This document shows positions 36,990 through 51,300 of a stretch of DNA of 64,000 nt, in pieces. A model generated the notes under the pieces. It saw only the letters and a list, made by a program, of their open reading frames with translations, had not been told where the DNA came from and searched no databases. The stretch's first letter is position 1; the number at the start of each line of letters is the position of its first letter. Origin of the DNA: Squalus acanthias (taxonomy: Eukaryota); contig CM059431.1 in the NCBI GenBank assembly GCA_030390025.1, positions 149,794,001-149,858,000 on the forward strand, read 5' to 3'. Position numbers and translations under genes: made by a program.

Positions 36990-38955
36990 TACAGTGAGTG
37001 GTGCGACTTATATCAGTATTACAATGAGTTGTGTGGGGTGTAACTATCCAGAGTGTGGCATGTATCAGAGAGTTACCGTGAATGGTGTGAGGTAAAGCAG
37101 AGTACTCCATTGTGGGTTGTGGGATATATCAGGGTGTTACAGGGAGCTGTGTGGAGTATATCAGACTGTTAAAGTGAGGGGTGTGCGGTATATCAGAGTG
37201 TTACAGTGAGGGTTGTGGGTTATATCAGAGTGTTACAGTGAGTGTTGTGGGGTATATCGGAGTATGTTACAGTGAGGGGGTGTAGTATATCAGAGTTTTA
37301 CAGTGATGGGTGTGGGGTATATCAGTCTGTTACAGTAAATTGTGTGGGGTATATCAAACAGTTACAGCGAGGGTTGTGGGGCATATCAGACTGTTACAGC
37401 GAGGGATGTGGTGTATATCAGTGTTTGTTACAGTGAGGGGGATGAGTATATCAGAGTGTTGCCGTGAGCGGTGTGGGGTTTATCAGAGCGTGTTACAGTG
37501 CGGTGTGCCGTTATATCAGACTGTTACAGTAGGCGGTGTGGGGGATATCAGAGTGTTACCATGAGGGGCTTGGGGTATATCAAAGTGTTACCGTGAGGGG
37601 TGTGGGGTATATCAGTGTGTGTTACAGTGAGGGGTGCCGGTATATCAGACTGTTACAGTGAGCTGTGTGGGGGATATCAGAGTGTTACCATGAGGTTTGT
37701 GGGGTATATCCGTGTGTTACAGTGAGTGTTGTGGGGTATGTCAGAGTGTTACAGTGAGTGGTGTGGTATATGTCAGAGTGTTACTGGGTTGTGGTGTATA
37801 TCAGATTGTTACCGTGATGGGTGTCGGGTATATCAGTGTGTGTTACAGTGAGAGGTGCCGGTATATCAGACTGTTACAGTGAGCTGTGTGGGGGATATCA
37901 GAGTGTTACCATGAGGTGTGTGGGGTATATCAGAGTGTTACAGTGAGTGGTGTGGGGTAAGTCAGAGTGTTACTGGGTTGTGGGGTATATCAGTGTGTTA
38001 CACTTAGTGGTGTGGTGTATATCAGATTGTTATTTTGAGGGGTGTGGGCTACATCAGAATTTTACAGTCAGTTGTGTGGGATATTTCAGATTGTTTCAGT
38101 GTGGGGTGTTTCAGAGTGTTACAGTGTGGGTTGTGGAGTATATCAGGGTGTGTTACAGTGAGGGGGTGGAATATATCAGAGTGTGCTACAGTGAGACGGG
38201 CGAGGTATATCAGTATCATAGTGAGTGGTAAGGGGAGTAACAGCACATTGTGTGGCATATATCAGATTGTTACAATGAGTGGTGTCGGGTGTATGGGTAG
38301 ATAGCAGGAATATGGTATTGAGATAAAGGATCAGCCATGATCATATTGAATGGTGGAACAGGCTCAAGTGGCCGAATAGCCTACTGCTTCTCCTATTTTT
38401 CTATGTTTCTATGTATTTCAGATTGTTACACTGAGGGGTATGTGGAATATAAGAGAGTGAGAGTGACATGTGTGGGATATATTAAAGGTTTACAGTGAAT
38501 GGTGTGCTGTATATCAGATGTTTACAGTGAGGCTGTGTGGGAAATCAGAGAGATATAGTGTTGGGTGTGTATATCAGCATGTCGCAGTGAGTGGTGTGGG
38601 GTATATAAGAGTGCTTCTGGGGTGTGGCATGTAACTGAGTGTTACAGTGAGAGTACTGGGATATATCATAGTGTTACTTTAAGGGTTGTGGGGTATAACA
38701 GTGTGTTACAGTGTATTTTGTGGGGCATAACAGAGTGTTACAGTGGGGAGTGTGTGGTATATCTGAATGTAACAGTGAGGGCTCTCGCGTATATCAAAGT
38801 GTTACAGAGTGGGGAGTGCGGTATGTCAGAGTGTGTCACACTGAGTGGTGTGGGACATATCAAAGTGCTAAGGGTGTGTGGTTTTTTTATAATGTTACAG
38901 TGATTGGTGTGGGCTATATCAGAGAGTGTTACTTTGAGTGATATGGGATATATCA
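36990..38955. repeat. ~33-bp satellite (tatatcagagtgttacagtgaggggtgtgggg)
   Basis: Dozens of diverged units; a short CR1-type tail is inserted at about 38290-38415. Confidence 0.9.
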
Positions 38956-39180: not shown

Positions 39181-39206
39181 AAAAATCCAGGTTCCGGGAG
39201 AGGTAT

Positions 39207-40844
39207 TGTAAGGGTCACGGACTGGTGCGAGCTGAGGCTTTCGATGCCTCTACTATTTCTTGCTCTGGTCTTCGTACAGACTTTTGCAATAAGCACCTGT
39301 GAGTGGTTCGACCCACTCGCCATTACGGTTCTGACATCTGCACTTAGATGCAAGGAGCAGTGATGTAGAGAACGACTCAAATAGACCTGGTTGAATAGCA
39401 CGAAATGAATGTCTTTGTTGCATTGCGTCTAAAATCATGAAATACATGTCATAGGCGCAGATCAAAGAGAGTACCAGTATACACACGTTTATTAAACTTG
39501 GTCTATGGAAATGGGGAACACACGACACATCGTAAAAGGGTGAACACATTATACATTAACCTTAGAAACCACCCTCCCTTAATATACCTAAACTACGTCT
39601 GGATTTGTATTATCGGGAAACCTGCTCACCACTCAGCTCACTTCGGAAATTTAAAATGAGGCTCTCAGATCGTTTCGCTGCAGCGCCTATCTGTCACGTG
39701 GCTGTAAGGGTTTCTGCACCCGACTTGTTTACTCTCGCTGCCGCGAATGGGTCCACTCGAGACGGCCCCGGTAAAGTTCGTCGCGGATGGCTCACGCTAT
39801 CCGCTCAAAGAGCCGGAGGGTAAGCCAAACTCCCTGATGTCATGAATTAGTTTGTGGAATTCAAACCTGGTCATGAAGTACTCTGTAGAATTCGAACTGG
39901 TGGACTCTGCCGTTTATCTTCGGGCGCGGTCGGGGTTTACTGACCGTGGCGGCACGTGGAATTTCTTCTCGTCTTTCTTCTCGTCTTCTCGTCACTCGGG
40001 CCTCACTCGGGAACACACCGCTGTGTTGCCCTGATGGGTCCGGACACCGTTTACCGACGATCGGGATGGTGTACCCTGCTGCCTGCCATGTCGAGGTGGC
40101 TCGTTCCGATTGAAATCCACCCAACACTCGAATACCGACCAGCGCAGCCCCGCCGAAGAAACCAGCACACGACAAGAGCGAAGAGCGAAGAGTCAAGAGC
40201 CAAGAGCCTGATGGACATTTGTCCCCTATAGTTATACAGTTTTGTCGGCCTTATCTCCCGCTCAAATCTAAATGTTATCCTTTGTGTGATTTTGGCGCCC
40301 AAAACTCCCAGCATGGGGCGATTATCTTCTTAATGGGTTTCGGTATCACCTGAAACTGGCCAACTATCCGTTAATGCCTTCTTCATTGTTGAGCCAGCCA
40401 GGATGTGTATGAATCGTCTCCTCAACTGGTTTTGGGACCCCCTGAATACTGGCTTAATCACCCGCCAATGTCTCTCTCATTGTTGATCCGGGGGGGTATT
40501 TGTGTAATGATGTGTCTGGATGGGCTTTCGATGGCCCAGTGCAATGATTCTTACTGTGCGTATGAAACGATTCAAGCACTTATATCATTGCTATTGTCCA
40601 AAAATGCAAACGGGTTGCATCCTGCCTTTTCAATTTGTACCAGGTATGATCTCATACTGAATGTATATTCGACGCCATCTTGTCTGCCCACTGTGTCTCT
40701 GGAAGCTTCTGCCACGATGCGCGGCGGCCATTTTGCAGGCTTCTGTACCCTTTATTTTCAAGACAGCATTCCGTTCAATAAAAATGATCAATTGAACCTG
40801 CTTCTCTCATATTATTAGAATCACGATAATTGCGAAACTCTACA
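39207..40844 (-). repeat. 3' LTR
   Basis: Direct repeat of 46691-48322. Minus-strand AATAAA at 39493-39488 and TATATTAA at 39586-39579. Confidence 0.97.
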
Positions 40845-41280: not shown

Positions 41281-43591
41281 TTACCACTCCGCTGTGTTCT
41301 CCTGCCTCGTGAGGCGTTTGCCCCTTTTGCAGTGCACGAACAACAGGTACACTACAATTACAACTTGACATACTACCAAAATGTGGGAGGCTATCCTGAT
41401 CCTTACGGGACTTCAATATTAGTGAACAGATCCCACCACGGTGGGGTTACTATGTCCAATATCTCTGCCCCTATCTCTAGAGTCTTCTGTTCCAGGGTGT
41501 AAAAATGTTTCTGTGATACCATGACGGCTTTTAAAATCTTGGTGAGGTGTTCAGGGAGAGGGGGAATGATGTACGCGAAATGCGCGACGAATCGCTGCAA
41601 GTCTGTGAAATTCTCTTTAACAGTGAGGTGAACCGTGGAGGGTGCAGGAATTGGGACAATTCGCTGTTGTGCCACTTGAACTTCAGCCCTGGGTTTAAAA
41701 CAGAAAATGCTGTCACTCACCGGACACTGACTGTTCTGTCCATGCTGGTAGTGTTGCGCTGCAGTGGTAACGCAATACGTTCCACCCCCTATGTATGCCA
41801 CCTGTGGGGGCACATGATCTTGTGTCATTGCTTCCATGGTGCAATTCATGGGCTTCGCCCCAGCCGTTCTGAACCCGCATTGTGGTATTAAAAAGGCATT
41901 CAAGTGCTGGGGACCAAGTATGAGGTGTGCTCCCCTGCTATGACAACCTGAGAGGTCGGTACCTGTCATCGTTTGCTCCCAGCGGATGACGTAAGGTGGG
42001 ACCGCTGCGTAGCGAATGTGGGCTCCCCACTGAATGAGTCCAATGTTCTCCACCCTGTACACCGGGGCGGGCTTTGCTGTGTTGCCCAACACCGGCATCC
42101 GTACCACTATACCCATGATAGTGTGATTTGAGTGTCCGCAGTCCACTGGGACTGGGTATGCCTCTGAGGCTAGCCTGAGCTGGCACGGGCTTAATGGGTT
42201 CTGAAAAGGGTGTAGCGCCTGCAGGTGTTTGTTGCTTATCCAGGACGGGACCAAACCTTGTTTTAAATCCTCCAAATTACTGCGGCCTTCGCCCAGTAAC
42301 CACACCCCGTATAACACGCACACCTCGTTCTGCGCAGCTTGATCGGATGCATTTCGATCTTCCCTGATCAGGGCATTTACCGTTCTCGCATGATTCTCCA
42401 GCTCTGCTATAATCTCTTTTAAGTGTAGTGTCATGGCCTGGTCCTTATGTAACTCAGACCCTACTACTTTATTCTCATTTGTGACGATGCTCTTTAACTG
42501 TGTCTTTAAACCGCTGATCTGTGTCTGCAGCTCTACATTATCTAGAGCGTTGACCACAGATGTTCCCGTATTAAAAGCAGTGAACACATCGTTCACAGCA
42601 CCCCTTCTTTGTCTCCCCACCTGACCAAAACTTCGTGTGGTGTGGTGTATTAGCTTGTTTTGTCAACCTCTGCAAAATCGAACTCATAAAACTGCCTGAA
42701 CATGTTTGTTAACAGGACCTGGTACAATTTTTCCGTTTCTTTGGGGCACCATTCTGGCAAATGCACCTCGGTGAGATTTAGAATCACCGAGGCCACCGCG
42801 TAATGTACCCCCTGATACAGTATCTGATCTGTTGGCACCAGTAACAGACCATTCCCGGGCCCCTTAGTGGTTTTAGGGCACCCTTGCTCCTGAGCCAATG
42901 CCACCGGAATCGTGGGCGGGGACTTGCGTGGGCGCGTGATGAGTTCAGTGGCGTTTACCGGGATCGGGGAGAATGGAGCTCCGCACCCCCGGGTGCTGAC
43001 GTCCCACCTCATCCCTTTCCCGGCATCCTGCCACTGTTGTAGGAAAAATATGGATATACCCTTGGGGCAAACGTACGTAGATCCCCACATACAAACATAT
43101 ATTCCCTCATCCGGTTCCCACCATTTGTCCCAACAGACTCTCACTTGTCCGTTAGTCCCCGTAATTGTCCGATGGGTATTGTTACCCAATCGCTCCCACT
43201 CGACCGAGGAATTTCTCATAGTCTTGCTTAACTTCCGTAACCACCACCATCGGCTCAATGTGACGTTTAAAATGCACACCAAACAAATCCTTTTGCCAAC
43301 GGTGACGCTGATTCTGAGTGCAACGATCCTCACCCTGGGACACAGTAAAGAAGTCTCTTTGTACGCAAACACGGATGCGCTGGAGTATTCCGTTGAATTC
43401 GTTCCCAGCCATCCCGGTCACCTTCCATTATGGAAATAAGTGGCGCTTTCCTCAGCCTCTCACTTCCCGGTCCCATCCGTCGTGATGGGGGCCGTGTCCC
43501 CGGAGCAACCGAACACAACGACATTCTTGGTGAGGCCCCGATAGGCCAATCCATATCCGATCGTCGCGAGCACCACAAGAATCCAATTCAT
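41281..43591 (-). pseudogene. env: Envelope glycoprotein, class I fusion protein resembling paramyxovirus F; disrupted
   Basis: Signal peptide MNWILVVLATIGYGLA (ATG 43591, AG acceptor 12 nt upstream); two in-frame TGA; Ig-like segment; F2-like CPKETEKLYQVLL; frameshift near 42655; furin site RQRR at 42614-42603; heptad helix; Cys-rich region; frameshift near 41405; TM IASHILVVCQVVIVVYLLFVHC-KRGKR; stop at 41281. Confidence 0.85.
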
Positions 43592-43850: not shown

Positions 43851-44888
43851 CTAGCTAACTCCTGAGAAGGCTGCTGCGAGCTGTTCCCCGTGGCGGGGGG
43901 ACACTGACCCTTGTCTTTGATCCGCCGCAGCCTGTCGCTGCCGATCGGGAACTGGGACCTCCCTGGGCTGCCTTGGACTTATACCTGGGGGTGTACGAGG
44001 GATCTGACCACAACTTCCTGTGCTGGGGTGTCCGACTCGACCTGCAGAGGGCCACCTTGGGCAAGGCCTCCAGGGCCGACGGACCGGGACTTCCACCGTC
44101 ACCGCCTGTGGTACCACCACAGCCGCCGGTTCTGTATCCCCTGGCTCCACCCCCCTGGGCTCGAGATCTGCGGTTTCCGACTCCACCCTACTTGTTTCAA
44201 CAGTAGGTGAATCTCCACCCGTAATCCCTACCTCCCCTATGCTCGGGTCGTGGGTGGAACCTCCGTCCTCCGACCCCACCACCTCTCCGACCGGGTCACA
44301 AACTTGGTCGAGCCCTCCGGGCCCTTCCTCATCCGAATCCCAAGAAAAAGGAGAGACCCTCCACTTTTGCAGAATGTCTTCTCCCCTCACGCAGGCTGCA
44401 TTACCGGCCTGCGTGACCTGCGGTTCTACCCGGGGCTGAGAGTCCCCACTCGCAGGTCTGGCCCCTCCCCTAAGACAGGCCACCGCCCCTGCTTGTGCAT
44501 TCTGTGTAATATCGCCTGCTGGAGGCTGAAGATTTCTATTCTGTTTTAGTTTGGGCAACTCTGCTACCATGGCTTGCAACTGCGGGGTGTTGAATTCCCC
44601 CGGGGTTGTTGAGCAAACCATCCCTCTGGCTTTGGATAGGGCTTGGGTCACAAATTTTATACTTTCCTCACAGGGCCCATGGTTTAAATCCTCATACTCC
44701 CTGCTCCTGGCTACCCTGTAGGCTGCCTTTATGTCTCTAAGCTGCCCTTCTAGCCCGTCTATTTTCCCCATTAAGCGAGCGTTCTCCTCCCGTAAGGCCT
44801 GCTCATTTAACCTGGCCTCCTTACAGGAGGTCTGTTCCTGTGCGTGTCTTTCAAGGGGACACAGGTAGGCAGGCTGCGCCGGTTCCAA
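43851..44888 (-). CDS. ORF2 in the pol position: duplicated Gag-N coiled-coil/HxxC module plus low-complexity acidic/Pro-rich tail
   Basis: 345 uninterrupted codons in frame directly after the gag TGA (44891-44889). No DT/SG protease, YxDD or DDE motifs were seen. Confidence 0.6.
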   Translation of the reverse strand: MEPAQPAYLCPLERHAQEQTSCKEARLNEQALREENARLMGKIDGLEGQLRDIKAAYRVARSREYEDLNHGPCEESIKFVTQALSKARGMVCSTTPGEFNTPQLQAMVAELPKLKQNRNLQPPAGDITQNAQAGAVACLRGGARPASGDSQPRVEPQVTQAGNAACVRGEDILQKWRVSPFSWDSDEEGPGGLDQVCDPVGEVVGSEDGGSTHDPSIGEVGITGGDSPTVETSRVESETADLEPRGVEPGDTEPAAVVVPQAVTVEVPVRRPWRPCPRWPSAGRVGHPSTGSCGQIPRTPPGISPRQPREVPVPDRQRQAAADQRQGSVSPRHGEQLAAAFSGVS

Positions 44889-46615
44889 TCAGAAGTCTGG
44901 GTTGTATGGGGCTGTTGCTACCTTTCCGTGTGAGGTCATAAGAGACCGCATGGCTCCTAACATTGACTCGATCGCGTCGTAATGGATAGGCACACCAGCT
45001 CCTCTCTCAGAGACAGGCGTTTGGGCTCGGACTGCGGGAGCTTTCTCCTTGGAATCCTTCCAGGGATTCCTACAGTTTTTGCGCTAGTGACCTGCCTTCC
45101 CGCACCCGTAACAAACACTATTGGTTTGTGCGGCGCGATTTCCCTCCTGATGCCACTCTTTCTGAGCCGGAGCTGCGGGCTTTGCTTCATGCACTTTTCT
45201 CTTAAGGGGACGCGCTCCCGTGCTTCTAGTATTTCTATGTCCTATGGTGAGCTGACTCAGGACCGACTCCTCCATTGTATTGGGGTTGGTGGGATCAAAC
45301 CACGCCTTGGCTTGCTCCCTGATGGCTGGCAAGCTGTTGGCGACTACGCACCTGAGCCAATGAGCTTTCTCGACACCGTGCAGGTTGTGACGCGCTGGTG
45401 TACTTGGGCAGCTACGCTGATATACTGGCCACAGCCTTTCGGCGAAAACTCGTGGGGGTTCTCCCTCCATCTGTACTGTCTGACCCAGTCTGCCAAACGG
45501 ACCTTCGTCATCCACTCCCAACACTTCCAGGACCTCGTCCCGTAAATCCTCATAGCCCCTAACTCCCCTCTTGCTCTCGTCGGAGAGACACTAAAGGATT
45601 GAGCTATCCAAAGAGAACAGCAACATTCTGGTCTTTTCCTCCCCGTCGCAGCCATTAATCGCTGCGGTCTGTTCTACCTCTCTAAAATGAACGGAAGGAT
45701 CTCCTGACTCTGACAGTTTCCGGACATGGCTGATCATTGCCCTCAGCTGTTGTGAGCTGTGGGGCACTACAAGTTGGTTTAAAAGGGTCCCGTCTTCCCC
45801 ATCTGCCCCGTTCGGGCCCCGCTTTTGTTCTCGGACCGGACACATCGGTGCCGGGTTCGACACTACCTCCGGGGTTTGTTCTACCTCGGGAACCTCCTTC
45901 TCAATTTCTACCGCTTCCTCCCTCACCCAGGTTTCCGTATAGCTGGGTGGCGCTGAGGGCTTGGTGGTTGGTACCACACCTGCTTTTCTTGGCAGTGGTT
46001 TTGGGAATTCCCTAGCTACCTGTGGCTGGCTCGCTGACGGGCTGATGAAACACACCAAGCCGTTCGCCTTATTCAGGGCCTCTCTCAGGTCCTATATCTC
46101 TCTCTGGCAAACGCTGTGGTCGGCTCACTCAGACTTATCCTCGAGAGCCATCTTGTATGCCGCCCTAACTCCCTGAGACTTTCTTCCTGGGTCTTTATCT
46201 GGTTAGCTAGGCGGATACACCGTTCTTTAATCTTTCCCTCACTTAACTTAGCTTCCGTGACCTGGCAGTCTAAGTAATCGATCCTAGCCTCGTGGTGGCT
46301 GGCTACTATTTGGCGTTCCTGATGCAACGCATTCAGTGATGCAATCAGTTTCTGTCCTCCCATAACCTTTTCCTCCATCTCTGTGTCTAACTCTTTGATC
46401 TGAGCTGTCTGTGCTGCAATGACCTGGTCCGAAAGTTGGACTTGCTCTTTGTAGCACATCAACCAGACCGATTTCTCTACTGACTTCTTATATTCTCTGC
46501 TACCTGTCCACCTGATGGCTGCGTCTAGCGGACGCCTATCCGTCAGTAGGTCACATATCCACTGTTTGGTCAGGGTTACATTCCCGAAAACATAGTCGGC
46601 TACTTTTTCGTCCAT
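44889..46615 (-). pseudogene. gag: Gag polyprotein, disrupted by frameshifts and stops
   Basis: ATG 46615 (or 46687 overlapping the PBS); coiled coil; PSAPPSY late domain (45959-45939); MHR-like QMEGEPPRVFAERL (45473-45432); zinc knuckle CYGCGKAGH*RKNC (45113-45072). Confidence 0.88.
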
Positions 46616-46668
46616 TACATTTCGTTTATTCAAACCTGGGTCTAAGACATTACTCTCTTGCTGCCAGG

Positions 46669-46686
46669 GTCCTGCCGTGGGCGCCA
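46669..46686 (-). promoter_or_regulatory. Primer-binding site, tRNA-Lys-like
   Basis: TGGCGCCCACGGCAGGAC begins 4 nt after the 5' LTR CA. It shares TGGCGCCC with the Lys1,2 and Lys3 PBS sequences. Confidence 0.8.
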
Positions 46687-46690
46687 TTTC

Positions 46691-48322
46691 TGTAAGGGTC
46701 ACGGACTGGTGCGAGGTGAGCTTTCGTTGCCTGTACTATTGCTTGCTCTGGTCTCCGGCCAGACCTTTGCAATAAGAACCTGTGAGTGGTTCGACCCACT
46801 CGCCCTTACGGTTCTGACACCTGGACTGAGATGCAAGGAGCAGTGATGCAGAGAAAGACTCAAACTGACTTGGCTGAATAGCACGAAATGAATGTCTTTA
46901 TTGCATGGCGTCAAAATCATGAAATACATGTCATAGGCGCAGATCAAAGAGATTATCAGTATACAAACGTTTATTAAACTTGGTCTATGGAAATGGGGAA
47001 CACATGACACATCGTAAAAGGGGGAACACATTATACATTAATCTTAGAAACCACCCTCCCTTAATATACCTAAACTACGTCTGGATTTGTAGGATCGGGA
47101 TACATGCTCACCACTCGGCTCACTTCGGAAATTTAAATGAGGCTCTCAGCTCGTTTTGCTGCAGCGCCTGACTGTCACGTGGCTGTAAGGGTTTCTGCAC
47201 CCGACTTGTTAACTCTCGCTCCCGCGAATGGGTCCACTCGAGACGGTCCCGGTAAAGTTCATCGCGGATGGCTCAGGCTATCCGCTCAAAGAGCCGGAGG
47301 GTAAGCCAGACTCCCTGATGTCATGAAGTAGTTTGTGGAATTCAAACCGGGTCATGAAGTAGTCTGTAGAATTCGAACTGGTGGACTCTGCCGTTTATCT
47401 TCAGGCGCAGTCGGGGTTTACTGACCGTGGCGGTACGTGGAATTTCTTCTCGTCTTTCTTCTCGTCTTTCTTCTCGTCACTCGGGCCTCACTCGGGAACA
47501 CATCGCTGTGTTGCCCTGATGGGTCCGGACACCGTTTACTGACGATTGGGATGGTGTACCCTGCTGCCTGCCGTGTCGAGGTGGCTCGTTCCAATTGAAC
47601 TCCACCCAACACTCGAATAACAGACCAGCGCAGCCCCGCCGAAGAAACCAGCGCACGTCAAGAGCGAAGAGTCAAGAGCCAAGAGCCCGATGGACATTTG
47701 TCCCCTGTAGTTATACAGTTTTGTCGGCCTTATCTCCCGCTCAAATCTAAATGTTATCCTTTGTGTGATTTTGGCGCCCAAAACTCCCAGCATGGGGCTA
47801 TTATCTTCTTAACGGGTTTCGGTATCACCTGAAACTAGCCAACTATCCGTTAATGCCTTCTTCATTGTTGAGCCAGCCAGGATGTGTATGAATCGTCTCC
47901 TCAACTGGTTTTGGGACCCCCTGAATACTGGCTTAATCACCCGCCAATGTCTCTCTCATTGTTGAGCCAGTGGGTATTTGTGTATTGATGTGTCTGGATG
48001 GGCTTTCGATGGCCCAGTTCAATGATTCTTACTGTGCATATGAAACGATTCAAGCACTTATATCATTGCTATTGTCCAAAAATGCAAACGGGTGGCATCC
48101 TGCCTTTTTAATTTGTACCAGGTATGATCTCATACTGAATGTATATTCGACGCCATCTTGTCTGCCCACTGTGTCACTGGAAGCTTCTGCCATGATGCGC
48201 GGCGGCCATTTTACAGGCTTCTGTACCCTTTATTTTCAAGACAGCATTCCGTTCAATAAAAATGAACAATTGAACCTGCTTCTCTCATATTATTAGAATC
48301 GCGATAATTGCGAAACTCTACA
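46691..48322 (-). repeat. 5' LTR
   Basis: Direct repeat of 39207-40844, adjacent to the PBS. TATATTAA at 47068-47061 and AATAAA at 46975-46970. Confidence 0.97.
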
Positions 48323-51300
48323 GTATGCAAATAGTATTTGTAGTGTGATAGCACCAAAAAGCAGGTAAGTGATTGGTTGGTGAGTGTTTTCTTTCTCAAT
48401 TTTTCTAAACTTTAATGTTGTGGTTTCTACGGTCTCTTTGTGTAGCGGGGACTACTGTTAAGCAAGGGCATTTGAGTATATCACTTAATTCTAGTGTAAT
48501 TGGTGGCATCCATTTAATTTTAATTTAATTTAAATTAATTAATTAAAGGATAAGTCATGGCAGGTGAGCTCGGTGCTGTGACATGCTCTTCCTGCACTAT
48601 GTGAGAAATCAGGGACACTTCCTGTGTCCCTGACAACCATGTGTGCAGGAGGTTTTTCCAGCTGCAGCTACTGACAGACCGCATTGCGGCGCTGGAGCTG
48701 AGAATGGATGCATATTGGAGCATTCGCGATTCTGAGCACATCTTGGATAGCACGTTTAGGGAGTTGGTCACACCGCAGGTAAATGGTGTACAGGCAGGAT
48801 GGGAATGGGTGACCACCAGGCAGAGTAATAGGCGCAGGCAGGCAGTGCAGGGGTCTCCTGTGGCCATCCCCCTCCCAAACAGATATATTGCTTTGGATAT
48901 TGTTGAGGGAGATGGCTTATCAGGGGAAGACAGCAGCAGCCAACTTCCTTGCACCGTAGGTGGTTCTGCTGCACAGGATGGGAGGAAAAAGTGTGGGCCA
49001 GCTATAGAGATAGGGGATTCTATTGTAAGGGGAATAGATAGGCGTTTCTGCGGCCGCAAACGAGACACCAGGATGGTATGTTGCCTCCCTGGTGCAAGGG
49101 TCAAGGATGTCTCAGAGCGGTTACAGAGCATTTCGGAAAGGGAGGGTGAACAGCCAGTTGCTATGGTGCATATAGGTACCAACGATATAGGTAAAACAAC
49201 GGGATGAGGTACTAAAAGCAGAATATAGGGTGTTAGGAGGTAAATTAAAAATAGGACCTCAAAGGTAGTAATCTCAGGATTGCTACCAGTTCCACGTGCT
49301 AGTCAGAGTAGAAATAGAAGGATATTTCAAATGAATACGTGGCTAGAGGAATGGTGCAAGGGGGAGGGATTCAAATTCCTGGGGCATTGGAACCGGTTAT
49401 GTGGGAGGTGGGACCAGTACAAACCGGACAGTCTACACCTGGTCAGGGCCGGGACCGATGTCCTAGGGGGAGTGTTTGCTAGTGCTCTGGGGGGGGGGGG
49501 GGGGGTTTAAACTAAAATGGCAGGGGGTTGGGAACCTGAGCAGGGAGACAGAGGAAAGGGAAACAAGGATAAAAGCAAAAGATAGGAAGGAGAAAAACAA
49601 AAGTGGCAGTCAGAGAAAACAACGCTTTAAATCAAACATGGCCACAGTAAATACTAATTCTAATCGGTGTAAGAGCGGTAAAAAAACAAGCCTGAAGGCT
49701 TTGTGTCTTAATGCAAGGAGCATTGGGATCATGGTGGATGAATTAGCTGCGCAAATAGAGGTAAACGAATATAATTTGATTGGAATAACCGAAATATGGC
49801 TCCAGGGTGGCCAGGGCTGGGAACTCAACATCCAGGGGCACTCAATATTCAGGAAAGATAGGCAAAAAGGAAAGGGAGGCGCGGTAGCTTTGCTGGTTAA
49901 AGAGGGGATTAACAAAATTGAAAGGAAGGATATTAGCTCTGATGATGTGGAATCTGTATGATTTGAACTGAGAAATAACAAGGGGCAGAAAACGTTAGTG
50001 GGAGTGATACGTAGACCTCCAAACAGTAATGCGGAGTTTGGGGATGGGATTAAAAGGGAAATTAGAGAAGCGTGCAATAAGGGCACAGCAGCCATCATGG
50101 GTGACTTTAATCTACATATAGATTGGGCTAACCAAATTGGTAACAATACTATGGAGGACGAATTCCTGGAGTGTTTACGGGATGGTTTCCTGGAACAATA
50201 TGCCGAGGAACCAACCAGAGATCAGGCCATCTTAGACTGGGTATTATGTAATGAAAAAGGATTAATTAGCAATCTTGTTGTGCGAGGCCCCTTGGGTCGG
50301 AGCGATCATAATATGATACAATACTTCATTAGGATGGAGAGTGAAGTAGTCGACTCAGAGACTTGGGTCCTGAATATAAATAAAGGAAACTACGATGGTG
50401 AGGTGCGAGTTTGGTACGATTTATTAGGGAATGCCACTCAAAGGGTTGACGGTGGATAGACAATGGCAAACCATCAAAGAACACATGGACGAACTACAGA
50501 ATTTGTTCATCTCGGTTTGGCATAAGAATAAAACAAAAAGTGTGATTCAACCTTGGCTAACAAGGGAAATTAGGGATAGCATAAGATCCAAGGAGAGCGC
50601 ATATAAATTGTCCAGAAAAAGCAGAAACCTTGAGAATTGGGAGCAGTTTAAGATTGAACAAAGGAGGACAAAGGGATTAATTAAGAAGGGGGAAATAGAA
50701 TACGAGAGTAAGCTGGCGGGGAATATAAAAACTGACTATGAAAGCTTTTATATAAATGTGAACAGAAGAAAAAGATTAGTGAAATCAAGCATAGGTCCCT
50801 TGCAGTCAGAATCAGGGGAACTTATAATGGGGAACAAAGAAATGTCAGACCAATTAAAAGCATATTTTGGTTCTGGCTTCACAAAGGAGGATACAAGTAA
50901 TCTCCCAGAGATGTTGGAGAACATAGGGTCTGATCAAAGAGAGGAACTGAAATAAATCAGTATTTGTAGGGAAATGGCGTTAGGGAAATTGAACGGATTG
51001 AAGACCGATAAGTCCCCAGGGCCTGATAATCTATATCCTAGGGTACTAAAGGAAGTGGCCCTAGAAATAGTAGATGCATTGCTGATCATCTTCCAACATT
51101 CGATGGAATCTAAAACACTACCCATGGATTGGAGGGTAGCTAATGTTATCCCACTATTCAAAAAGGGTGGTAGAGAGAAAACAGATAATTACAGACCGGT
51201 AAGCCTGACATCGGTAGTGGGGAACATGCTAGAGTCCATTATAAAAGATGTAATAGCTGAGCACTTGGAAAACAGTGACAGGATCGGACAAAGTCAACAT

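What the first reader, a model, noticed from the sequence alone, without database searches (positions are those of the whole stretch)
43851..46255. Pol replaced by an ORF containing an old duplicate of a Gag N-terminal coiled-coil/HxxC module
Seen: after repairing one 1-nt deletion, gag 46255-46050 (EAKLSE..RL..LR.VRAAYKMA..DHSVC..I..LREALNKANGLVC) aligns without gaps to ORF2 44819-44613 (EARLNE..RL..LRDIKAAYRVA..NHGPC..I..TQALSKARGMVC). By hand this is 26 of 69 identical residues, including the H, C and C. That is far more diverged than the two LTRs, so the duplicate predates this insertion. ORF2 is uninterrupted for 345 codons while gag has several lesions. Inference: ORF2 may co-assemble with Gag through this module (scaffold, helper hijacking or interference), or it was captured from a second related virus.
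Basis: partly seen in the sequence, partly recalled or inferred. Interest (0 to 1): 0.85.

Follow-up and report, generated by a model that had tools for sequence, protein, structure and literature searches.

The report
Pol-deleted endogenous retrovirus with gag scrap
This is a dead copy of a defective endogenous retrovirus whose polymerase gene was replaced by a short patch that includes a piece of a related virus's gag gene, and the resulting reading frame shows no sign of being a working protein.

Summary
The gag stretch 46255-46050 and ORF2 44819-44613 align without gaps at 26 of 69 residues (Smith-Waterman 129 against 25.9 +/- 5.0 for shuffles; 0 of 5000 reach it).

ORF2 is a remnant of pro-pol, not a new gene. 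It lies in frame behind the gag UGA. Its first 12 codons are the pro leader. Its last ~205 codons are the disordered Pol tail that follows integrase in an abundant autonomous sibling element of the same genome. PR-RT-RH-IN (3.66 kb) was replaced by a 387-nt patch.

That patch, together with the last ~12 gag codons and the stop, resembles a second related ERV lineage more than the element's own sibling.

ORF2 evolves neutrally across copies (dN/dS 0.84-1.01), while gag (0.27), gag's own module (0.22) and env (0.23-0.42) are constrained.

The window's ORF2 is also damaged: a 7-nt deletion puts its last ~78 codons off the family frame.

One loose end remains: nonsense and frameshift changes look under-represented in ORF2 codons 1-266, possibly through sampling bias.

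Verdict: an ordinary non-autonomous ERV; low to moderate interest.

The parts
46691..48322 (-). 5' LTR (sense strand is minus), TG...CA ends
   Evidence: blastn of the two LTR regions: 94.5% identity over 1645 aligned bases with 75 mismatches and 7 gaps; the ends were read from the flanks. Direct repeats were first seen.
39207..40844 (-). 3' LTR
   Evidence: Same alignment as the 5' LTR. A purine-rich tract lies just upstream in the sense orientation (read from the flank).
39203..39206 (.). Apparent 4-bp target-site duplication GTAT; the second copy is at 48323-48326
   Evidence: Flanks printed; both LTR outer flanks read GTAT.
44889..46687 (-). gag, broken. ATG at 46687. A 1-nt deletion lies at about 46174. 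In-frame stops at 46127-46125 (TGA), 46094-46092 (TAG), 45593-45591 (TAG) and 45086-45084 (TAG, inside the CCHC knuckle). The natural UGA stop is at 44891-44889.
   Evidence: Homologous to a skate protein (60% identity) and to a Logan-assembly protein (46%). zf-CCHC is the precomputed Pfam domain of the skate homologue P0002 and was found by hmmscan in family B gag.
46050..46255 (-). gag coiled-coil / DHxxC helix-loop-helix module (the original of the duplicate)
   Evidence: alignment. In the AF2 model it is the end of a long helix, a loop, then a short helix, at pLDDT 83-89 in the helix. It is under purifying selection: dN/dS 0.22; shared variants 14 N, 18 S and 1 stop in frame, against 46 N, 13 S and 3 stops in the two off-frames, p 0.0013.
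44889..44891 (-). gag stop codon UGA, in the same frame as ORF2 (the readthrough position of pro-pol)
   Evidence: Frames. Census of 37 distinct loci: TGACTGG 32, TGATTGG 2 (the window among them), TGACTAG 1, TGGCTGG 2. The five autonomous copies and the one family B copy aligned (L047) read TGACTA followed by G or A.
43851..44888 (-). ORF2: 345 codons plus a stop; a chimeric pro-pol remnant
   Evidence: At least 177 matches in the same genome. No Pfam family. No relative of similar length among 5.8 billion proteins.
44853..44888 (-). pro leader: ORF2 codons 1-12 (LEPAQPAYLCPL)
   Evidence: The same leader precedes the protease (LLDTGAS; RVP E 4.4e-5) in autonomous copy L037, and precedes a protease fragment in family B.
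44466..44927 (-). Foreign patch of about 462 nt: the last ~12 gag codons, the UGA, the leader, and a 387-nt insert (ORF2 codons 13-141) that replaces PR-RT-RH-IN
   Evidence: blastn of a family copy against L037: 96% identity up to the patch, 95% after it, and 79% over only 39 nt inside it. The left part differs at 21-28 of 75 sites from autonomous copies and at 12-15 of 75 from family B. The boundary in window coordinates was read.
44613..44819 (-). gag-like module inside ORF2 (codons 24-92)
   Evidence: The AF2 model gives helix 11-62, a loop, then helix 71-92, at pLDDT 52-71.
43854..44465 (-). Pol C-terminal tail (ORF2 codons 142-345), with a 7-nt deletion at about 44085 that shifts the last ~78 codons off the family frame
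   Evidence: 95% nt identity to the stretch that follows the integrase in L037. The deletion of one unit of CCCGGTC CCCGGTC is shown. Predicted disordered, pLDDT below 50.
41300..43591 (-). env, broken. ATG at 43591, a stop at codon 44, a frameshift near 42627, and an 89-nt deletion near the 3' end.
   Evidence: The uninterrupted family form is 783 aa with an RQRR cleavage-like site and a C-terminal membrane anchor.

Best explanation
The window holds a dead copy of a pol-deleted, non-autonomous endogenous retrovirus: LTR-gag-UGA-ORF2-env-LTR on the minus strand. ORF2 is the scar of the pol deletion, not an evolved gene. Its first 12 codons are the leader of the pro-pol frame, which in this virus group is read by readthrough of the in-frame gag UGA. 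Its last ~205 codons are the disordered tail that follows integrase in the autonomous sibling. The 3.66 kb coding for protease, reverse transcriptase, RNase H and integrase has been replaced by 387 nt. That insert, with the last ~12 gag codons and the stop, came from a different, family-B-like lineage of the same virus group. It is a patchwork: a gag coiled-coil helix-loop-helix module, 14 residues from the start of that gag's capsid-like part, and the first ~20 residues of that lineage's Pol tail. This is what template switching between co-packaged RNAs during reverse transcription produces (inferred). The family makes its own Gag and Env, both kept by selection (shown). It must borrow protease, RT and integrase from the abundant autonomous sibling (inferred). 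If translated at all, ORF2 would appear as a minor Gag-ORF2 readthrough fusion (inferred from the frame and stop context). Its amino-acid sequence, the gag-like module included, drifts neutrally (shown). The module is therefore a recombination relic, not a device for binding Gag.
For: Architecture: in 15 of 16 10-kb loci gag is followed directly by ORF2; the 16th (L037) has 3.7 kb of pol in between. L037 has RVP, RVT_1, RNase_H, Integrase_H2C2 and rve, and its Pol ORF runs into the ORF2 tail sequence. Flanks of the deletion are 95-96% identical between L037 and a family copy. Gag and ORF2 share a frame across a TGA in 35 of 37 distinct loci; the other 2 read TGG.

Foreign origin of the patch: searches give 21-28/75 differences from five autonomous copies and 12-15/75 from family B. 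Upstream of the patch the figures are 2-17/89 and 33-34/71. In the module tree ORF2 lies outside the clade of own gag, skate gag and family B gag (supports 86/77 and 98/97). The post-module pieces match family B gag (z 3.9, 5 of 2000 shuffles) and the family B tail (z 3.4, 15 of 2000).

No protein constraint: in the same 11 copies dN/dS is 0.27 for gag, 0.22 for the gag module, 0.42 and 0.23 for env, 0.84 for the ORF2 leader plus insert, and 0.90 and 1.01 for the ORF2 tail. Shared-variant N:S for the ORF2 leader plus insert is 27:11 in 38 rows, against 55:17 plus 1 stop in the two off-frames (p 0.65). For gag it is 157:153 plus 3 stops against 441:123 plus 21 stops off-frame (p 2e-17); for env, 83:93 plus 3 stops against 267:65 plus 18 stops (p 7e-15). 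The ORF2 insert against the gag module gives Fisher p 0.033.

Helper present: 61 of 61 scored pol matches are 96-100% identical, with open frames up to 1496 aa.

The structure model shows only a helix-loop-helix and disorder in ORF2.
Against: Nonsense changes are scarcer in ORF2 codons 1-268 than a spectrum-matched random placement predicts. Variants shared by two or more copies give 0 observed against 5.0 expected (P 0.005); private variants give 4 against 8.5 (P 0.07). True frameshifts run at 0.73 per 1000 codons in codons 1-266, against 4.5 in codons 267-346 (my recount) and 1.48 in gag. The two indels that spread to several copies there, a 69-nt duplication and a 24-nt deletion, are in frame. 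By my hand count of the listing, 80 of 97 matches spanning at least 230 residues have no stop. This hints that the frame is kept open even though the residues are free. The copies were chosen by ORF2 protein score, which may bias against stops, and a stop-blind sample could not be fetched. The donor lineage of the patch was not found, so 'second virus' rests on relative similarity over short stretches and on a 78-column tree with long branches. Readthrough and trans-mobilisation were not observed. The patch is 2-6 times less diverse than its flanks at silent sites (dS 0.039 against 0.10-0.23). I attribute this to a single origin plus recombination of the flanks with helpers, but an RNA-level constraint is not excluded.
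Confidence: 0.75

Rival explanations
1. ORF2 is a functional protein that uses its gag-like coiled-coil module to co-assemble with Gag, as a scaffold, a helper-hijacking device or an interfering factor.
For: The module is truly homologous to a gag segment that is itself constrained. It is predicted as the same helix-loop-helix. H and the first C of the loop are present in all 18 module sequences compared. ORF2 is in frame with gag behind a UGA followed by C.
Against: Module N:S among shared variants is 14:6, the same as in the wrong frames (16:4 and 14:4), while the gag module gives 14:18. ORF2 leader plus insert has dN/dS 0.84. There is no relative of ORF2 outside this genome. A Gag-ORF2 fusion would enter particles through its Gag part anyway, so the module is not needed for that.
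Confidence: 0.05
2. The ORF2 frame, not its sequence, is kept open for about 266 codons in replicating lineages. Two reasons are possible. Ribosomes that read through the gag UGA may need to travel far down the RNA, which would shorten the effective 3' UTR and shield the genomic RNA from nonsense-mediated decay. Alternatively, a long Gag-X fusion with a disordered acidic tail may be needed in particles in place of Gag-Pol.
For: Shared nonsense variants: 0 observed against 5.0 expected (P 0.005), a depletion like that in gag (3 against 11.9) and env (3 against 8.6). True frameshifts are six times rarer in codons 1-266 than in 267-346 (my recount). The indels that spread are multiples of three. 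The UGA and its context are conserved in 35 of 37 loci. Missense drift is neutral, as this model predicts.
Against: The sample was picked by ORF2 protein similarity, and private variants also show a deficit (4 against 8.5; in the 16 hand-picked rows 0 against 5.0), which points to sampling bias. The analogous remnant ORF of family B carries about 2 stops per 1000 codons, no fewer than its gag (about 1.8), by my hand counts. No stable RNA structure was found downstream of the stop (z -1.0 to -1.6 for the two non-autonomous junctions tested, the window and L035; +0.5 to +0.9 for L037 and L047). No expression data are available.
Confidence: 0.15
3. The module is an old duplication of the element's own gag within one lineage. 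A template jump back into its own gag would have made it, and its great divergence would then be only the result of neutral drift, with no second virus involved.
For: ORF2 drifts neutrally, so its branch is long and its place in a 78-column tree is unsafe; the tree tool itself flags that long branches meet. No donor gag with a near-identical module was found in 1.84 billion representative proteins; the best hits are 39-43% identical.
Against: The patch includes non-module sequence (the gag end, the stop and the leader) that can be compared directly. This sequence is closer to family B (12-15/75 differences) than to five autonomous siblings (21-28/75), although the flanks are sibling-like. The module shares HGPC and other states with family B and more distant gags where the element's own gag has HSVC. 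The post-module piece matches family B gag (z 3.9) better than own gag (z 1.8).
Confidence: 0.12

Closest known systems
Non-autonomous, internally deleted ERV families that outnumber their autonomous partners. The example read here is bovine ERVK[2-1-LTR] D-type elements mobilised in trans by C-type elements (PMC10924933, abstract read). ETn/MusD in mouse and the deleted HERV-H (RTVL-H) forms are recalled, not read.
   Same: Same LTRs and flanking genes as an autonomous element in the same genome. There is one shared internal deletion, many copies, and the enzymes are presumed to be supplied in trans.
   Different: Here gag and env are retained and are still under purifying selection, so only pol is parasitised. 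The bovine D-type elements are described as lacking functional genes. The deletion is also filled by a patch from another lineage, and the remnant stays in frame with gag.
Recombinant defective retroviruses made by template switching between co-packaged RNAs, for example recKoRV and acutely transforming retroviruses (recalled, no paper read here)
   Same: Internal viral genes are replaced by foreign sequence through non-homologous or short-homology jumps, the LTRs and packaging region are kept, and the element depends on a helper.
   Different: The captured sequence is not a host gene or an unrelated retroelement. It consists of fragments of a related virus's own gag and Pol tail, and it shows no sign of selection.
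Gag-stop-Pro-Pol expression by in-frame stop-codon readthrough in gamma- and epsilonretroviruses (established knowledge, recalled)
   Same: gag and the downstream frame are in phase and separated by a single stop. The stop is UGA followed by CUA G/A in the five autonomous copies and the one family B copy aligned, and by CUG G in most pol-less copies.
   Different: Readthrough was not shown. No downstream structure stood out in minimum-free-energy folds, and pseudoknots are not covered by the tool. What lies downstream is not an enzyme.
Lokiretroviruses (PMC7947760, passages read): fish and amphibian ERVs with a paramyxovirus-F-like Env and, in some, an extra 'smc' coiled-coil gene
   Same: A lower-vertebrate ERV with an unusual Env that has a large C-terminal subunit, and a coiled-coil segment outside the usual Gag domains.
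   Different: Env gave no PF00523 match at E up to 1. The coiled coil here is part of Gag. RT is closest to foamy-virus and MLV-type RTs among solved structures. Not filed as a member.

Membership tests
Non-autonomous (pol-deleted) derivative of an autonomous ERV | Bounded by two LTRs with a target-site duplication | tested here: met
   LTRs 39207-40844 and 46691-48322, 94.5% identical, with TG..CA ends and flanking GTAT on both sides.
Non-autonomous (pol-deleted) derivative of an autonomous ERV | Lacks protease, RT, RNase H and integrase | tested here: met
   No Pfam family in any of the 7 ORF pieces of the element or in the family form of ORF2. In the alignment to L037, 3.66 kb is replaced by 387 nt.
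Non-autonomous (pol-deleted) derivative of an autonomous ERV | An autonomous relative with matching flanks exists in the same genome | tested here: met
   L037 has RVP, RVT_1, RNase_H, Integrase_H2C2 and rve and is 95-96% nt identical on both sides of the deletion. 61 of 61 scored pol matches are 96-100% identical.
Non-autonomous (pol-deleted) derivative of an autonomous ERV | The same deleted form is present at many loci, meaning it spread after the deletion | tested here: met
   15 of 16 10-kb loci; at least 177 ORF2 matches.
Non-autonomous (pol-deleted) derivative of an autonomous ERV | Mobilised by the helper's enzymes in trans | not testable with these tools
   Inferred from the copy number and the absence of enzymes. 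Shared gag-end haplotypes between pol-less and autonomous copies suggest co-packaging and recombination.
Retroviral Gag-Pro-Pol by stop-codon readthrough | gag and the downstream frame are in phase and separated by one stop | tested here: met
   Frames; TGA in 35 of 37 loci; the same arrangement in 5 autonomous copies and in family B.
Retroviral Gag-Pro-Pol by stop-codon readthrough | A readthrough-promoting RNA structure downstream of the stop | tested here: inconclusive
   Minimum-free-energy folds of 122 nt gave z -1.6 and -1.0 (pol-less copies), +0.9 (autonomous) and +0.5 (family B). Pseudoknots were not modelled.
Functional accessory or Gag-binding protein | Purifying selection on the amino-acid sequence across copies | tested here: not met
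   dN/dS 0.84-1.01. N:S equals the off-frame controls, while gag and env pass the same test.
Functional accessory or Gag-binding protein | Homologues kept in other genomes | tested here: not met
   No hit for ORF2 among proteins of 189-604 aa. The insert alone finds six proteins at 33-43% identity: four are gag or gag fragments (P0003, P0005, P0007, P0008), one joins a gag module to an env N-terminus (P0004), and one is an unrelated 1264-aa repeat protein (P0006).
Lokiretrovirus | Env similar to paramyxovirus/pneumovirus fusion glycoprotein F0 (PF00523) | tested here: not met
   hmmscan of the uninterrupted 789-aa env frame at E up to 1 gave only DUF6360 at 0.12. No PDB sequence match.

The most novel reading that the evidence does not exclude
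The pol-less family keeps a roughly 266-codon 'filler' frame open behind its leaky gag stop, although the residues are free to drift. One reason could be that readthrough ribosomes must run far down the genomic RNA to protect it from nonsense-mediated decay. Another could be that particles need a long Gag-X fusion in place of Gag-Pol. The captured gag module would then be mere filler. That would be a case of selection on translatability rather than on protein sequence in a parasitic retrovirus.
Probability: 0.15. Interest if true: 0.55.

Novelty: new member of a known kind. Interest (0 to 1): 0.3.

Why it matters
Taken as proposed, the finding would have been a retroviral gene evolved to bind Gag in place of Pol. 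The evidence shows something more ordinary but still instructive. This is a vertebrate (probably skate-like) ERV system in which a pol-less family keeps working gag and env and parasitises only the enzymes of a young, abundant autonomous sibling. Its pol scar records recombination with a second lineage.

It also shows that an uninterrupted ORF in a GC-rich retroviral remnant, and even real homology to a functional domain, are not evidence of function. The same copies supply the controls: gag, env and the wrong reading frames.

The unresolved shortage of nonsense and frameshift changes in the first 266 codons is a cheap, testable lead on whether readthrough frames are kept open for reasons other than their protein.

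Tried and rejected
- Pfam: no family for any of the window's seven ORF pieces at E up to 0.1, nor for the family form of ORF2 at E up to 1.
- ORF2 against 5.8 billion proteins of similar length: no hit. The 'longer' and 'shorter' length classes were not searched, because the long form was found directly in the genome (L037).
- Profile-profile alignment of ORF2 with gag: probability 97.4, E 1.6e-11, ORF2 22-212 against gag 192-447. I reject the part beyond the module as over-extension. ORF2 residues from about 142 onward are orthologous to the Pol tail of the autonomous copy, and similar motifs occur in the family B tail.
- RNA folds downstream of the stop: nothing beyond shuffles.
- Lokiretrovirus link: PF00523 not matched.
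- Env: no PDB sequence match. The protein atlas gave only weak leads, 0.84 to an unnamed chordate cluster and 0.75 to a cluster in which 19% carry Baculo_F.
- Structure models are of low overall confidence: pTM 0.24 and 0.25. I ran no fold search on them.
- No complex prediction was run. A Gag-ORF2 fusion would co-assemble through its Gag part whatever the module does, so the result would not have changed the verdict.
- Sequencing runs: no RNA holder listed. No reads were laid.
- Earlier findings of this scan: none for this place or sequence.
- The circular-shift control is uninformative, because local alignment still finds the unshifted part.
- Literature: searches for 'lokiretrovirus', for non-autonomous/trans-complemented ERVs, and for ERV, cartilaginous, skate, gag and coiled-coil found no description of this family. 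That is three searches of open-access text only.
Full report
**1. What is there**

On the minus strand the window holds a provirus bounded by two 1.63-kb LTRs (39207-40844 and 46691-48322). The LTRs are 94.5% identical over 1645 aligned bases, have TG...CA ends and are flanked by GTAT on both sides.

The interior reads as follows:
- gag runs from ATG 46687 to a TGA stop at 44891-44889.
- ORF2 (44888-43851) follows in the same frame.
- env starts about 260 nt further on, at ATG 43591.

The copy is dead:
- gag has a 1-nt deletion near 46174 and four internal stops.
- env has an early stop, a frameshift and a 3' deletion.
- ORF2 has a 7-nt deletion at about codon 267.

**2.

The gag stretch 46255-46050 and ORF2 44819-44613 align without gaps at 26 of 69 positions. 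The Smith-Waterman score is 129, against 25.9 +/- 5.0 for 5000 shuffles, none of which reaches it. The remainder of gag's coiled-coil N-terminus scores only 34 against the ORF2 module, so coiled-coil composition does not explain the match. tblastn of ORF2 also found the gag module in other copies, at E down to 2e-12. Other copies carry neither the 1-nt deletion nor the two stops of the window's gag module.

**3. ORF2 is a pol remnant**

The genome (3.7 Gb) has at least 177 ORF2 matches. I fetched sixteen 10-kb loci. In 15 of them gag is followed directly by ORF2, and in most of these by env.

The sixteenth locus, L037, is an autonomous relative. After the gag stop the same leader (LEPAQP.YLCPL) continues into a protease (RVP), RT (RVT_1, YVDD), RNase H and integrase (Integrase_H2C2, rve). 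Its Pol frame then runs on into the very sequence that forms ORF2 residues ~142-345.

At the DNA level a family copy is 96% identical to L037 up to about 45 nt before the gag stop, and 95% identical from ORF2 codon 142 through env. In between, 3.66 kb of L037 corresponds to 387 nt of unrelated sequence.

ORF2 is therefore three pieces:
- the pro leader (12 codons);
- an insert (codons 13-141);
- the Pol C-terminal tail (~205 codons).

AlphaFold models both modules as a long helix, a loop carrying the H..C, and a short helix (pLDDT 83-89 in the gag helix, 52-71 in ORF2). Everything in ORF2 after residue 92 is modelled as disordered.

The pol of the autonomous form is abundant and very uniform: 61 of 61 scored matches are 96-100% identical, with open frames up to 1496 aa. 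A helper is therefore at hand.

**4. Where the insert came from**

The foreign stretch starts inside the end of gag. Upstream of it, three pol-less copies differ from five autonomous copies at 2-17 of 89 sites, and from a second family (B) at 33-34 of 71. In the next 75 compared columns (last gag codons, stop, leader) they differ from the autonomous copies at 21-28 sites but from family B at only 12-15.

Family B is another pol-deleted family in this genome. Its remnant keeps a protease fragment instead of a gag fragment.

A tree of 18 module sequences places the ORF2 module outside the clade that unites the element's own gag, a divergent sister gag, a skate gag and family B gag. It groups weakly with a more distant gag lineage, and the long branches call for caution.

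The part of the insert after the module matches two things. One is 14 residues at the start of the capsid-like region of family B gag (z 3.9; 5 of 2000 shuffles reach the score), a better match than to own gag (z 1.8). The other is the start of the family B Pol tail (z 3.4; 15 of 2000).

The best public matches to the insert are five gag-derived proteins at 33-43% identity; a sixth hit is an unrelated repeat protein. No donor was found.

I infer a recombinant. The body comes from the autonomous lineage, and the patch comes from a related lineage that had itself suffered jumps between gag and pol. Template switching during reverse transcription of co-packaged RNAs is the established way such mosaics arise. 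The switching itself is inference.

**5. Is ORF2 kept by selection?**

I compared natural copies only. In the same 11 copies, Nei-Gojobori dN/dS values are:

| Region | dN/dS |
|---|---|
| gag | 0.27 |
| gag's own module | 0.22 |
| env (two parts) | 0.42 and 0.23 |
| ORF2 leader plus insert | 0.84 |
| ORF2 tail (two parts) | 0.90 and 1.01 |

In 38 rows, ORF2 overall gives 0.83, no different from the same bases read in the two wrong frames (0.72 and 0.75).

I also counted variants carried by two or more copies, which were therefore passed on through replication:
- ORF2 leader plus insert has 27 nonsynonymous and 11 synonymous, the same ratio as off-frame (p 0.65).
- gag has 157:153 plus 3 stops, against 441:123 plus 21 stops off-frame (p 2e-17).
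- The gag module has 14:18 plus 1 stop, against 46:13 plus 3 stops off-frame (p 0.0013).
- env has 83:93 plus 3 stops, against 267:65 plus 18 stops off-frame (p 7e-15).
- The ORF2 insert differs from the gag module at p 0.033.

The method therefore detects constraint where it exists and finds none on the ORF2 protein. Choosing copies by ORF2 protein similarity would, if anything, bias towards finding constraint.

**6. A loose end**

Nonsense changes are scarcer in ORF2 codons 1-268 than expected when the observed base changes are placed at random on sites of the same base and CpG class. Shared variants give 0 against 5.0 expected (P 0.005); private variants give 4 against 8.5. For comparison, gag gives 3 against 11.9 shared and 9 against 12.9 private.

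Pieces of one in-frame 69-nt duplication had been split by the aligner. After merging them, true frameshifts number 7 in codons 1-266 (0.73 per 1000 codons over 36 rows) and 13 in codons 267-346 (4.5 per 1000). The indels that spread (the 69-nt duplication and a 24-nt deletion) are in frame. gag shows 1.48 per 1000.

By my hand count of the table, 80 of 97 matches spanning at least 230 residues have no stop.

This could mean that the frame, though not the sequence, is kept open. It could equally be sampling bias: the private-variant deficit, and the 0 against 5.0 in my 16 hand-picked rows, point that way. The remnant ORF of family B shows no such sparing, at about 2.0 stops per 1000 codons against about 1.8 in its gag (hand counts). 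A stop-blind sample could not be fetched.

**7. How it most likely works**

Shown:
- the architecture;
- the in-frame UGA (TGA in 35 of 37 loci, followed by C in 33);
- the chimeric make-up of ORF2;
- selection on gag and env and none on ORF2 residues;
- the presence of an abundant autonomous sibling.

Inferred:
- The family packages its RNA with its own Gag, uses its own Env, and borrows protease, RT and integrase from the sibling.
- It recombines with the sibling in the shared regions. This would explain why the patch, which the helper lacks, is far less diverse (dS 0.039) than gag (0.228), the tail (0.10) or env (0.09-0.13), and why gag-end haplotypes are shared with autonomous copies.
- A small fraction of ribosomes may read through the UGA and make a Gag-ORF2 fusion. 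No downstream RNA structure stood out, and no RNA data were available.

**8. Comparison with what is known**

This is a non-autonomous ERV of the kind known from bovine ERVK[2-1-LTR] D-type elements (PMC10924933, abstract read), and from ETn/MusD and deleted HERV-H (both recalled). It differs in retaining selected gag and env, and in having its pol scar filled with fragments of a related virus's gag and Pol tail, in frame with gag.

It is not a lokiretrovirus by the Env criterion (PMC7947760, passages read). I found no description of this family in three full-text searches.

**9. Verdict**

'Pol replaced' and 'captured from a second virus' are supported. It is a new member of a known kind, with interest about 0.3. 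The only lead worth a follow-up is the apparent sparing of the first ~266 codons from nonsense and frameshift changes.

Noticed in passing
L037 (G000:C3256:2881111-2891110) and the places listed: The autonomous sibling looks young and abundant. All 61 scored pol matches are 96-100% identical at the protein level, 40 of them without a stop in 733 residues (my count of the listing), with open frames up to 1496 aa. Its RT is closest to foamy-virus and MLV-type RTs among solved structures.
   Followed up: partly
L047 and L048 (G000:C2:89188621-89198620, C10:95651210-95661209): A second pol-deleted family (B). Its gag is about 85% identical to protein P0003. An in-frame stop is followed by a 364-aa remnant made of the same leader, a protease fragment with LVDTGA, bits of the RNase H/integrase junction and the Pol tail. 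No env-like ORF of 120 aa or more follows in the two copies seen. There are at least 131 gag and 140 remnant matches.
   Followed up: partly
window 41300-43591 (-); uninterrupted form in L032:1648-4014 (-): The Env of this ERV group is of no recognised type. It is 783 aa, with an RQRR cleavage-like site after about 325 residues, a very large (~460 aa) C-terminal subunit and a membrane anchor. There is no Pfam or PDB sequence match. The only lead is a weak atlas hit to a cluster in which 19% carry Baculo_F.
   Followed up: partly
window 46669-46691 (-): The gag ATG (46687) lies 4 nt after the end of the 5' LTR and overlaps a primer-binding-site-like TGGCGCCCA... There is thus no leader between the LTR and gag, and the open frame even runs back into the LTR. 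The reading as a primer-binding site is recalled knowledge, not tested.
   Followed up: no
family alignment, reference positions 2101-2550 (window about 44466-44888): The patch is the least diverse part of the element: pairwise diversity 0.026-0.049 against 0.055-0.115 in gag, and dS 0.039 against 0.10-0.23 in the flanks. My reading is a single origin, with the flanks refreshed by recombination with helpers. An RNA-level constraint is not excluded.
   Followed up: partly
protein P0004 (public collection): A 203-aa predicted protein from another data set joins a gag-type module, the closest to the ORF2 module at 43% identity, directly to an Env-like N-terminus. Deletion derivatives that join gag to env regions therefore seem to recur in this virus group.
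   Followed up: no
protein P0002: The nearest named relative of this Gag is annotated as a host gene: 'uncharacterized protein LOC144598870 isoform X2' of the skate Rhinoraja longicauda (60% identity, 588 aa). It is probably an ERV gag annotated as a gene.
   Followed up: no
L039/L040 (G000:C3:163237276-163254724): Two family copies lie head to tail about 7.4 kb apart; gag of the second starts soon after env of the first. This looks like a tandem provirus array sharing an LTR.
   Followed up: no
L036 and L038: Two copies have TGG in place of the gag UGA, giving a continuous gag-ORF2 frame. In L036 the stop-to-stop frame is 730 aa, or 654 aa from the ATG.
   Followed up: partly
window 38016-38849: An array of imperfect 32-nt-spaced repeats just outside the 3' LTR (family D1).
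   Followed up: no
window 48605-50459 (+): Long ORFs of a non-LTR retrotransposon type lie directly beside the 5' LTR. The endonuclease/RT-like reading is by eye only.
   Followed up: no
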